Below are positions 45,387 to 48,451 of a stretch of DNA of 64,000 bases, piece by piece. This DNA comes from Eledone cirrhosa (taxonomy: Eukaryota): NCBI GenBank assembly GCA_964016885.1, contig OZ024753.1, forward strand, positions 17,422,001 through 17,486,000, written 5' to 3'. The position numbers and the translations under genes are program-made. Position 1 is the stretch's first letter. The number at the start of each line of letters is the position of its first letter. The notes under the pieces are model-generated. The model saw only the letters and a program-made list of their open reading frames with translations, was not told where the DNA came from and did not search any database.

Positions 45387-45995
45387 ACACCGAACATTAT
45401 AATAAATGTTCGGTGAATCCATACGTACATATATATATATATGTGCATGTATGTATATATATATACATACTACTGTACGTCTGTATACATATATGTATGT
45501 ACGTGTACATACTTATATTTAAGTAACAGCCGTACTAAGAGTGGGAAATGAAATTTCGTTTCATTTTTGCCGTTTATCGTTTTCGGTGCACCCGGCCGAT
45601 TAACCTACTCGATATGCAAATTGGGCTGCTCAGCCGTTAATATGCATAAGGTAAGTATATACATTCAACAATCTGGCAGGAAGGTATACGTTTCTGACGA
45701 TAGCTAACAAGCTTGAAACTAGTACAGCGTTCCTTTGTCAGTGTTGAACAAACGAGCAACGATGGTTGCTAGACACTACAGCTTAATACGGGATGTTTGT
45801 TTACAAACACACCGAGCATTATAATAAATGTTCGGTGAATCCATACGTACATATATATGTGTGTGCATGTATGTATATATATATATATACATACTACTGT
45901 ACGTCTGTATACATATATGTATGTACGTCTACATATTTATATTTAAGTAACAGCCGTACTAAGAGTGGGAAATGAAATTTCGTTTCATTTTTTCC

Positions 45996-46001
<6 letters not shown>
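45387..46001 (+). mobile_element. Terminally redundant non-coding element (422-bp period) with hammerhead
   Basis: Direct repeats 45387-45577 and 45809-46001. (TA)n on both sides. Hammerhead motif in the unique middle. Confidence 0.65.
45681..45735 (+). ncRNA. Minimal type I hammerhead ribozyme motif
   Basis: ACGTTT-CTGACGA-T-AGCT(AACA)AGCT-T-GAAA-CTAGTA^CAGCGT. Palindromic ACTAGT stem III, GUA site. Confidence 0.65.
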
Positions 46002-46032
<31 letters not shown>

Positions 46033-46035
<3 letters not shown>

Positions 46036-46999
46036 CGTATGTTGTATTGAAGCAAATAACTATGTGTATACTCTGGGAATGTATCTTACATTGCCCATCG
46101 AGTGCGCTGAGATGCAGCCGGTAACCGGTCCTGGCATTGATAAATATGCTGGATCCGTCAACTCATTATTATTATCTCCCAACTAGCGGACTATTGAGAG
46201 TAAGTTAAACAATTTTTCCTTTTGTTTTGATATGCACTCTATTTTTCCTGCTATTAATTTTGTCTCTCACTCTTTTAAGTTGTGAAATAGACTGGTTCTC
46301 TACGAACGCGGTTGACACATTTCAGCTCGCTACTATATTGCTCTATAATGGATAATCGCATTTAAAGTCCGTTAAAGGTTCTTGGCACTACCATTGTTAC
46401 CATCGCTTACCTCTAGCCATGGGACTTGGAGACATGAACCGAATGCTTCCATTCTATTATACATCCATCTGGACTGCTATTTCTAATGGCCATCTTTTCA
46501 CCTCTTAATAATTTGTGTGTGAGACACGTTAGCTCAGTGCTTCTGACAGGAACGAAAAGATTGATTCTCTTAGTCTCCCGCCACCACGTAAAATTTGTAA
46601 ATTGGTGGCTAGTCGAGAGATAGAATCTTATCGGCTGCCAGTTGCTAATCGCTTTACCGTGTCAGTCGTCACAAACAGTCATGACCGGCATCGGCTGGTG
46701 TTTTGATTCTGTCGATCGATTGGTTATTGATTAGGCGATACCCGCTGATGAAAACGCATAAGCCGATTGTGCATTGTTGCATAATATATGCAGACGGATG
46801 GTGCAGTGCACCTTAGTGCTGCATTAGTGCGGCAGAAACTCGAGTCCGGGAACCTTATAGGCACCCGTTTTACGTGTGTTGTGTTGAAGCAAATAACTTT
46901 GTGCATACTCTGGTAATGTATCTTACATTGCTCATGGAGTGCGCTGAGATACAACCGGTACTGGCATTGATAAATATTTTGGGTCCGTCAACCCTTATT

Positions 47000-47004
<5 letters not shown>
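46033..47004 (+). mobile_element. Terminally redundant non-coding element (837-bp period) with hammerhead
   Basis: Diverged direct repeats 46033-46175 and 46870-47004. (TA)n on both sides. Confidence 0.65.
46741..46850 (+). ncRNA. Type I hammerhead ribozyme with enlarged stem II domain
   Basis: CCCG-CTGATGA-(about 83 nt with internal hairpins)-GAAA-C(TCGA)G-TC^CGGG. Confidence 0.65.
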
Positions 47005-47037
<33 letters not shown>

Positions 47038-47607
47038 AACGTAAAATAAGAAATTTATAGTAATTAGCTTACATACTTAAATTTCACTCCAGCTAATTAG
47101 TTTTTGAAAGGGAATATACATGTAGAATATGGAGAAACATTTTCGTCATCAGGGAGTCATTCTCAGCTAAGATACCTGGCGATGCGTGGAACAGGGAACT
47201 TATACAAAAAGATTCAGTGGATGGAAAAGAGCAAGCGGGGACTAAATTCCAAGACACTGAAAAAAATCACTGCCTTCTTGTTCGGTGGCAAATTCAAAAG
47301 AATCGATCACGTGACATCGAGGTTAATCAGTGAGGAGTGGGGGTGTTAAAAAGACAGTAGCCAAGCTGTTACTATGAACTATAGTAGTGATTTTTGGCAA
47401 ATTTTTGCTCAACAAAATAATTTGGAGATAATTATAGAGAATTAGTATATCTACCAACATATATACCTATGCAAGCAAATATATAGAGGTTTTGTCTTAG
47501 TAACTTTGTCGTTCAATGCAAGGGGATGCAGAACAATTATATGAAAAACGTAAAATAAGAAAATTAAGTAAGTAAGCTAATTACTATAATTTTCTTATTT
47601 TACGTTT

Positions 47608-48451
47608 CCTCCGAAGCAATGTCTCTCCTTCTTGTCCTCCGGCACCATGAGGTGGAGTGGCTGTTCCAGCAAGTCTCCCTCCCTATCCTCCGAAGCAATG
47701 TCTCTCCATCCTGTCCTCAGGCACCATGAGGTGGAGTGGCTGTTCCAGCAAGTCTCCCTCCCTATCCTCCGAAGCAATGTCTTCTCCACCTTGTCCTCCG
47801 GGAGCACGAGGTGGAGTGGCTGTTCCAGCAAGTCTCCCTCCCTATCCTCCGAAGCAATGTCTTCTCCACCTTGTCCTCCGGGAGCACGAGGTGGAGTGGC
47901 TGTTCCAGCAAGTTTCCCTCCCTATCCTCCGAAGCAATGTCTTCTCCATCTTGTCCTCCGGGAGCACGAGGTGGAGTGGCTGTTCCAGCAAGTCTCCCTC
48001 CCTATCCTCCGAAGCAATGTCTTCTCCACCTTGTCCTCCGGGAGCACGAGGTGGATTGGCTGTTCCAGCAAGTCTCCCTCCCTACCCTCCGAAGCAATGT
48101 CTTCTCCACCTTGTCCTCCGGGAGCACGAGGTGGAGTGGCTGTTCCAGCAAGTCTCCCTCCCTATCCTCCGAAGCAATGTCTCTCCATCCTGTCCTCAGG
48201 CACCATGAGGTGGAGTGGCTGTTCCAGCAAGTCTCCCTCCCTATCCTCCGAAGCAATGTCTTCTCCACCTTGTCCTCCGGGAGCACGAGGTGGAGTGGCT
48301 GTTCCAGCAAGTCTCCCTCCCTATCCTCCGAAGCAATGTCTTCTCCACCTTGTCCTCCGGGAGCACGAGGTGGAGTGGCTGTTCCAGCAAGTCTCCCTCC
48401 CTATCCTCCGAAGCAATGTCTTCTCCACCTTGTCCTCCAGGACCATGAGGT
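47608..48451. repeat. 80-bp minisatellite, about 10.5 copies
   Basis: Unit CCTCCGAAGCAATGTCTTCTCCACCTTGTCCTCCGGGAGCACGAGGTGGAGTGGCTGTTCCAGCAAGTCTCCCTCCCTAT. Confidence 0.97.

What the first reader, a model, noticed from the sequence alone, without database searches (positions are those of the whole stretch)
45387..47608. Stack of terminally redundant, ribozyme-bearing non-coding units separated by (TA)n
Three unrelated units sit back to back. One has a 422-bp period, a 190-bp terminal repeat and a hammerhead at 45694. One has an 837-bp period, a 140-bp repeat and a hammerhead at 46745. One has a 509-bp period with a short repeat (47031/47540), a decayed minus-strand motif and a terminal fold-back at 47545-47607. 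A slightly-more-than-monomer unit with one ribozyme is what reverse transcription around a circular or multimeric RNA would deposit, as known for retrozymes and partial-tandem Penelope ends. Inference: candidate non-autonomous ribozyme retroelements that repeatedly hit one TA hotspot, with the palindromic element at 45171 as a fourth insert.
Basis: partly seen in the sequence, partly recalled or inferred. Interest (0 to 1): 0.75.

Follow-up and report, generated by a model that had tools for sequence, protein, structure and literature searches.

The report
Stacked hammerhead retrozymes beside Penelope end
Three abundant non-coding jumping repeats, each carrying a mutated copy of a predicted self-cutting hammerhead RNA motif, sit stacked in TA repeats next to the cut-off end of a protein-coding Penelope-type transposon, and enzymes of that kind likely pasted them in; this is a known sort of genome parasite, and RNA circles remain untested.

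Summary
Observation confirmed. U1 (422-bp period), U2 (837) and U3 (509-517, minus strand) are dispersed families of this 3-Gb animal genome (1,670-3,459 first-look candidates each). The families carry intact minimal type I hammerhead motifs; all three window copies are mutated. They have no ORF, fixed 3' ends in (TA)n, variable 5' ends and tandem arrays: non-LTR retrozymes, a known class. Corrections: U3's fold-back is a truncated inverted second arm, and the palindrome at 45171 is the 3' end of a coding Hydra-clade Penelope-like element (PLE). U1, U3 and coding PLEs share two-armed insertions with two fixed ends; U2 is always single-armed (0 of 79 loci). Repeats within one U1 or U3 insertion share a haplotype (fits a circle or a uniform array), but the window's U2 subfamily does not (26/47 sites), which argues against a monomer circle there. 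One insertion joins a U3 arm to a coding Hydra-PLE arm, a single hint at the partner. Stacking in TA is common (57 of 179 loci). No RNA data. The scan reported the 422-bp family and this anatomy before on other DNA.

The parts
45139..45171 (.). (TA)n target run
45172..45307 (-). 3'-terminal ~137 nt of a coding Hydra-clade PLE, including a ~78-nt tail (45172-45249); holds only the 3' half of that element's hammerhead-like motif
   Evidence: longer copies run on into a GIY-YIG and RT ORF
45309..45364 (+). Inverted second arm of the same PLE insertion, ending at the tail-less end
45365..45386 (.). (TA)n run
45387..46001 (+). U1: 1.46 monomers of a 422-bp non-coding family, single-armed here, ending at the family's tail-bearing 3' end
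45688..45730 (+). U1 minimal type I hammerhead motif, helix III palindrome of 4 nt, predicted cut after 45724; 45693 mutated
45999..46033 (.). (TA)n run
46033..47004 (+). U2: 1.16 monomers of an ~837-bp non-coding family (minority subfamily B); single fixed 3' end, never two-armed in the loci examined
46741..46850 (+). U2 type I hammerhead motif with an 83-nt branched helix II region and 6-nt palindromic helix III, predicted cut after 46846; 46753-46754 mutated
47006..47033 (.). (TA)n run
47031..47566 (-). U3 main arm: ~1.05 monomers of a 509-517-bp non-coding family, ending at the tail-less 3' end (47031); 5' boundary approximate
47086..47157 (-). U3 type I hammerhead motif, 8-nt palindromic helix III, predicted cut between 47091 and 47090; two core positions mutated (47104, 47092)
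47559..47607 (+). U3 inverted second arm, cut short (its expected tail end is missing) where an 80-bp tandem repeat begins
   Evidence: family rule

Best explanation
U1, U2 and U3 are three high-copy, non-coding repeat families with hammerhead motifs (non-LTR retrozyme type), likely copied into (TA)n by Penelope-like (PLE) reverse transcriptase and GIY-YIG endonuclease acting in trans, and the palindrome beside them is the truncated, inverted 3' end of a coding Hydra-clade PLE. Shown: copy number, monomer periodicity, no ORF, intact family motifs, fixed 3' ends with TA-like microhomology, variable 5' ends, two-armed insertions of U1 and U3 with one tail-bearing and one tail-less end, the same anatomy in coding Hydra- and Neptune-type PLEs of this genome. 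Inferred: the endonuclease nicks (TA)n; RT primes at a fixed internal site of the RNA and copies more than one monomer across an uncut or re-ligated ribozyme site, so the template is a multimer or a circle; each insertion leaves TA on both sides, which would attract the next. For U1 and U3 one uniform template (circle ~50%, uniform read-through transcript ~50%) serves both arms. U2 inserts single-armed, and its subfamily B looks copied from mixed templates.
For: Dispersed copies on many contigs. Arrays of at least 7.8 (U1) and about 17 (U3) monomers. Longest ATG ORF 55-60 aa; no real match to 8 PLE proteins. Intact motifs in most family copies and majority alleles in public contigs of one sample. 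U1 has a sister family (465 bp, 61% identical over the whole monomer) with four both-side changes in helices I and II. Adjacent inverted arm: U1 13 of 29 loci, U3 19 of 29 and 23 of 30 (some loci overlap), U2 0 of 89 loci, 79 after removing repeats. Of 17 distinct two-armed U3 insertions, 13 pair one end at phase ~2 with one at 102-120, none pair like ends. Coding PLEs with the same two ends in (TA)n: Hydra-type parent of the palindrome, Neptune-type 938-aa RT+GIY-YIG ORF, second Hydra family. This anatomy is described for PLEs in PMC8557442. One chimeric insertion (L333/L341): U3 tail-end arm joined head-to-head at a 5-nt microhomology (one mismatch) to a coding Hydra arm with its tail-less end. 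Subtype sites agree within an insertion: U1 arms 21/21, U1 neighbours 36/41, U3 44/48 and 46/50, versus 0.51-0.61 between loci.
Against: No coding PLE sharing sequence with the ends of U1, U2 or U3 was found among 50 of 150 listed GIY-YIG loci or 30 second-Hydra loci; the partner is inferred from anatomy. U2 lacks the two-armed PLE footprint altogether. The chimera is 1 of 208 non-TA 5' flanks examined (not de-duplicated) and could be a deletion between two neighbours. U2 repeats agree at only 94/126 subtype sites (background 0.948): 68/76 in subfamily A but 26/47 in subfamily B; two independent insertions share private variants in their 5' repeats only. One U1 insertion (L013) has both arms at the same end. 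Cleavage was not assayed; in the 2026 preprint 8 of 9 tested retrozyme dimers did not cleave. Loci are the best-scoring 30-40 hits per search, not a random sample.
Confidence: 0.8

Rival explanations
1. Strict monomer-circle model: every unit here was written by RT running round a self-cleaved, ligated monomer RNA circle.
For: Copies cross the predicted cut site and exceed one monomer. One haplotype per insertion in U1, U3 and U2 subfamily A. Circles are proven for coral, mussel and axolotl retrozymes (PMC7229834). U1 monomer folds far below shuffles (z about -8, inflated by TA tracts).
Against: U2 subfamily B, including the window copy (3/8 sites agree), has discordant repeats. A uniform tandem source predicts the same haplotype pattern. 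U3 monomer fold is unremarkable (z -0.8 and -2.0). Does not apply to the palindrome.
Confidence: 0.35
2. Linear read-through model: RT copies uncut multimeric transcripts of genomic tandem sources (or switches between RNAs); the ribozymes cut slowly or only trim transcripts.
For: Position-specific 5'-repeat haplotypes in U2; mosaic U2 haplotypes; minimal PLE-type hammerheads cleave poorly in vitro (PMC4209133); tandem sources exist.
Against: No asymmetry in linkage across the U2 cut site (Mantel r 0.53 vs 0.52), so a jump at the cut site is not supported; arrays of many monomers need long sources or later amplification.
Confidence: 0.35
3. U1-U3 are only truncated ends or one-off deletion products of coding PLEs, with no life as non-coding units.
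For: True for the palindrome. Retrozymes are proposed to derive from PLE pLTRs (2026 preprint).
Against: Upstream of the 3' end lies more monomer, never an ORF, in the U1, U2 and U3 loci read; U1 and its sister family diverged to 61% as whole non-coding monomers.
Confidence: 0.07
4. U2 alone is moved by a different enzyme (a TA-targeting LINE or a PLE family that makes no second arm).
For: 0 of 79 distinct U2 loci two-armed, one fixed 3' end, TA on both sides in many copies.
Against: Same motif type (palindromic helix III) and same target as the PLE-type families; single-armed insertions also occur in U1, U3 and coding PLEs.
Confidence: 0.3

Closest known systems
Metazoan non-LTR retrozymes (Cervera & de la Pena 2020, PMC7229834; Li, Clavereau & Pollet 2026, 10.64898/2026.07.22.740005)
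   Same: Non-coding monomers in tandem, type I hammerhead per monomer, GC 35-42%, no LTR/PBS/PPT seen, PLEs in the same genome; lengths inside the 51-972 bp range of the 2026 preprint.
   Different: Longer than the 170-400 nt of the 2020 paper; helix III minimal and palindromic as in PLE motifs; U2 has an 83-nt helix II region; (TA)n targeting, fixed ends and inverted arms are not described in the parts I read; circles and cleavage untested here.
EN+ Penelope-like elements, Hydra and Neptune clades (Craig et al. 2021, PMC8557442; Cervera & de la Pena 2014, PMC4209133)
   Same: Partial tandems, 5' truncation, inverted arm, tail at one end, (TA)n preference, hammerhead in the repeat. The palindrome's parent shows the Hydra motifs (CxCX5C linker, CxxC, CxH) and resembles Hydra-1_Obim in RT motifs.
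   Different: U1-U3 encode nothing; tails are ~57, ~105 and ~78 nt rather than 30-40; the parent is not Hydra-1_Obim itself (14-mer and 8-aa probes absent from the supplement).
Plant LTR retrozymes (PMC4918200; search listing and abstract start only)
   Same: Non-autonomous, hammerhead-bearing, terminally redundant.
   Different: Those have type III motifs, true LTRs and 4-bp TSDs (as stated); here type I motifs and variable-length redundancy.

Membership tests
non-LTR retrozyme (U1, U2, U3) | Short non-coding monomer repeated in tandem, multi-copy | tested here: met
   U2 reaches only 1.7 monomers in the loci read
non-LTR retrozyme (U1, U2, U3) | Type I hammerhead motif in each monomer | tested here: met
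   family copies intact, window copies mutated
non-LTR retrozyme (U1, U2, U3) | No LTR-type fixed termini; GC below 50% | tested here: met
   5' ends variable; GC 0.35-0.42; PBS/PPT not searched separately
non-LTR retrozyme (U1, U2, U3) | Two consecutive complete motifs (2026 preprint's 'active' criterion) | tested here: inconclusive
   met by U1 and U3 arrays elsewhere and a few U2 loci (L036, L040, L041, L046, L275); not met by any window copy
non-LTR retrozyme (U1, U2, U3) | Self-cleavage | not testable with these tools
   no assay
non-LTR retrozyme (U1, U2, U3) | Expressed as monomeric circular RNA | not testable with these tools
   no RNA run listed; contigs cannot show circles
Hydra-clade PLE (parent of 45172-45364) | RT followed by C-terminal GIY-YIG with CxCX5C linker, CxxC and CxH | tested here: met
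   translations of L195, L201, L202 against section 11 and supplement of PMC8557442; by motif, no tree built; ORFs read are broken
Hydra-clade PLE (parent of 45172-45364) | (TA)n insertion; hammerhead near 3' end | tested here: met
   motif folds into three helices but has an atypical first core strand
Autonomous PLE (U1, U2, U3) | RT and endonuclease ORF | tested here: not met
PLE-type insertion footprint | Inverted 5'-truncated arm and tail at one end only | tested here: inconclusive
   met for U1, U3 and the palindrome; not met for U2

The most novel reading that the evidence does not exclude
A Hydra-clade Penelope enzyme is the mobiliser of at least U3 (caught in one chimeric two-armed insertion), and this genome runs two different retrozyme routes side by side: two-armed insertion from one uniform, probably circular RNA (U1, U3) and single-armed insertion from mixed or linear templates (U2), so the presumed circle is not the only intermediate.
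Probability: 0.3. Interest if true: 0.65.

Novelty: new member of a known kind. Interest (0 to 1): 0.42.

Why it matters
How animal retrozymes integrate, and which enzyme moves them, is proposed but not shown (PMC7229834; 2026 preprint), and PLE retrotransposition itself lacks an in vitro system (PMC8557442). These families give fixed priming sites, a candidate Hydra partner, an intact Neptune-type ORF and a natural contrast (two-armed U1/U3 versus single-armed U2) that make those questions testable. The stack itself is an ordinary pile-up in a TA repeat.

Tried and rejected
Rfam gathering scan: no ribozyme family hit. RNA evidence: no RNA holder listed; three runs of one sample, kind unknown and possibly the source, gave only allele majorities, no empty site or circle. 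Partner by shared ends: blastn of U1-U3 against 50 GIY-YIG loci and 30 second-Hydra loci gave only separate neighbouring inserts. Coding remnants: tblastn hits were low-complexity TA translations or E>0.5. Coding parent for the U1 sister family: none in 30 loci. A short U1 3'-end query returned nothing because common words are skipped, so U1 has no length-unbiased sample. 5' ends piling up at the cut site: not seen for U2 (2 of 30 near it, one beside an N gap); U3 ends cluster just downstream, but a hairpin there makes mapping ambiguous. Template jump at the U2 cut site: no linkage asymmetry; first attempt failed for too few sites. One search printed 5'/3' phases swapped for minus-strand arms; counts use. 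MITE reading of U3 (49-nt inverted ends) rejected: arm length varies from copy to copy and the unit is tandem. Earlier-finding look-ups by sequence and by nearby place were blank. Literature searches listed no paper on cephalopod retrozymes or on single- versus two-armed retrozyme insertion; the library lacks most subscription papers and Repbase, and the preprint's supplements were not read.

Full report
Observation. A type I hammerhead descriptor hits only 45694 and 46745 in the region, with cuts after 45724 and 46846, against 0.001 hits per shuffle. Rfam finds none.

Families. The window lies in a 3.0-Gb genome (G000; earlier scan notes call it cephalopod, not checked by me). Each unit has many dispersed relatives: 1,670 (U1), 3,459 (U2), 3,222 (U3) and 2,066 (palindrome) first-look candidates, which are not copy numbers; 40 were scored and 30 fetched per search. 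U1 and U3 also form arrays (7.8 monomers filling locus L019; about 17 U3 monomers on C2). The monomers have no ATG ORF over 60 aa and no real match to eight PLE proteins from this genome.

Ribozyme motifs. Family copies carry intact minimal type I motifs with palindromic helix III (4, 6 and 8 nt); U2 has an 83-nt branched helix II region, U3 41-52 nt. All three window copies are damaged (45693; 46753-4; 47104 and 47092), and public contigs of one sample carry the intact letters as the large majority. A sister family of U1 (465-468 bp, 61% identical along the whole monomer) keeps helices I and II through four both-side changes, which points to selection on the fold. Cleavage is not shown; such minimal motifs cut poorly alone (PMC4209133, part 2 of 4 read).

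Ends. Copies have fixed 3' ends abutting (TA)n, each at an internal site that itself reads TA/TAT, and scattered 5' ends. U1 and U3 often carry an inverted second arm: 13 of 29 U1 loci (25 distinct), 19 of 29 U3 loci (17 of 26 distinct) and 23 of 30 with a short tail query. The two outer ends differ by a tail: U1 phases ~365 and 422; U3 phases ~2 and ~107 (13 of 17 distinct two-armed U3 insertions; the other four are complex). U3's 'fold-back' is such an arm, cut short. U2 never shows one: 0 of 89 loci, 79 distinct; it has a single 3' end (28 of 30 within phases 832-8, one of those not TA-flanked, one elsewhere). Partial tandems, inverted arms, a one-sided tail and (TA)n bias are the described PLE footprint (PMC8557442; passages and section 11 read).

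The palindrome. Extending it through a longer copy led upstream into a GIY-YIG and RT ORF with the Hydra-clade motifs. So 45172-45364 is the last ~137 nt of a coding PLE plus an inverted tail-less arm (27 tail-then-TA and 21 tail-less-then-TA ends among 51 ends in 29 loci). Coding PLEs are abundant here (10,595 GIY-YIG candidates, 150 listed), including a Neptune-type element with a 938-aa RT+GIY-YIG frame, flanking repeats, a hammerhead variant and two 3' ends in (TA)n.

Partner. No coding PLE shared sequence with U1-U3 ends in 50 GIY-YIG loci or 30 loci of a second Hydra family. Among 208 non-TA 5' flanks, one (L333/L341) joins a U3 arm head-to-head to the endonuclease region of that second Hydra family at a 5-nt microhomology with one mismatch; the U3 arm ends at its tail end and the Hydra arm at its tail-less end, both in (TA)n. 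That is what one insertion using two RNAs would leave, but a deletion between neighbours could mimic it.

Circle or multimer. Copies begin at a site other than the cut site and run across it, so the template was uncut multimer or re-ligated circle (inference). At recurrent subtype sites, units of one insertion agree in U1 (arms 21/21, neighbours 36/41) and U3 (44/48, 46/50) versus 0.51-0.61 between loci: one uniform template, which fits a circle or a uniform array equally. U2 agrees at 94/126 (background 0.948); split by subfamily, 68/76 in ten A loci and 26/47 in six B loci, the window copy 3/8. L032 and L040, with unrelated flanks and different 5' ends, share private variants only in their 5' repeats. 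A single monomer circle cannot give this; a mixed multimer, template switching or later conversion can. Linkage shows no break at the cut site.

Stacking. 57 of 179 loci hold another of five tested families within about 1.5 kb, so four in a row is the tail of a common pattern, expected if each insertion leaves TA on both sides.

Comparison. U1-U3 meet the sequence-level definition of non-LTR retrozymes (PMC7229834, passages and parts 2-3 of 6 read); a PLE origin and PLE mobilisation are proposed there and in the 2026 preprint (parts 1-3 of 5 read, supplements not). Six searches listed no paper on these families. The scan has already reported the 422-bp family and the two-armed anatomy from other windows (unchecked notes). 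What this locus adds is the single-armed U2 family, its evidence against a monomer circle, the Hydra identity of the palindrome and one chimeric insertion. Verdict: new members of a known kind; interest 0.42.

Noticed in passing
window 63231 (+) and 60865 (-): Two copies of another hammerhead-bearing family with a longer, 3-bp helix III; also seen in several loci.
   Followed up: partly
window 8115 (+), 59517 (+): Further hammerhead-like cores with plausible helices, read by eye.
   Followed up: no
window 45307/45309 and many loci L093-L120: Many short copies of the Hydra PLE fold back at the same base, inside helix II of its hammerhead-like motif; suggests a fixed RNA 5' end (the context resembles an initiator, recalled) or a short subfamily.
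   Followed up: partly
window 45614-45621; L224: An octamer-like motif (recalled name) upstream of the ribozyme is kept between U1 and its 61%-identical sister family; both have a hairpin and T-run at the tail end. Possible promoter/terminator, untested.
   Followed up: no
U2 phase 523-538 (window ~46690-46705): 5' ends of U2 copies pile up here in both first and second monomer (3 of 29, 5 of 30, 6 of 30 loci, with overlap between sets): start site, RT pause or TA microhomology.
   Followed up: partly
L152:6700-7650; L208:3345-4275: Other retrozyme-like families: 459-bp period with two motifs, and 310-bp period with four motifs.
   Followed up: no
L151 (G000:C1:145869300-145877500): Neptune-type PLE with 938-aa open frame, ~1.1-kb flanking repeats 95-98% alike and a hammerhead variant with a changed core pair; candidate recently active element.
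   Followed up: partly
window 24972-42305: 17-kb G/T-rich degenerate tandem repeat (periods 18-24) with GC skew near 1.
   Followed up: no
window 47607-48452: 80-bp tandem repeat, 10.6 copies, 95% matches, truncating U3's second arm.
   Followed up: no
window 49104-49166 (-), 63443-63506 (+): Weak tRNA-like Rfam hits (34.5 bits), likely pseudogenes or SINE heads.
   Followed up: no
window 44068-44367: 74-bp units arranged as nested direct and inverted repeats.
   Followed up: no
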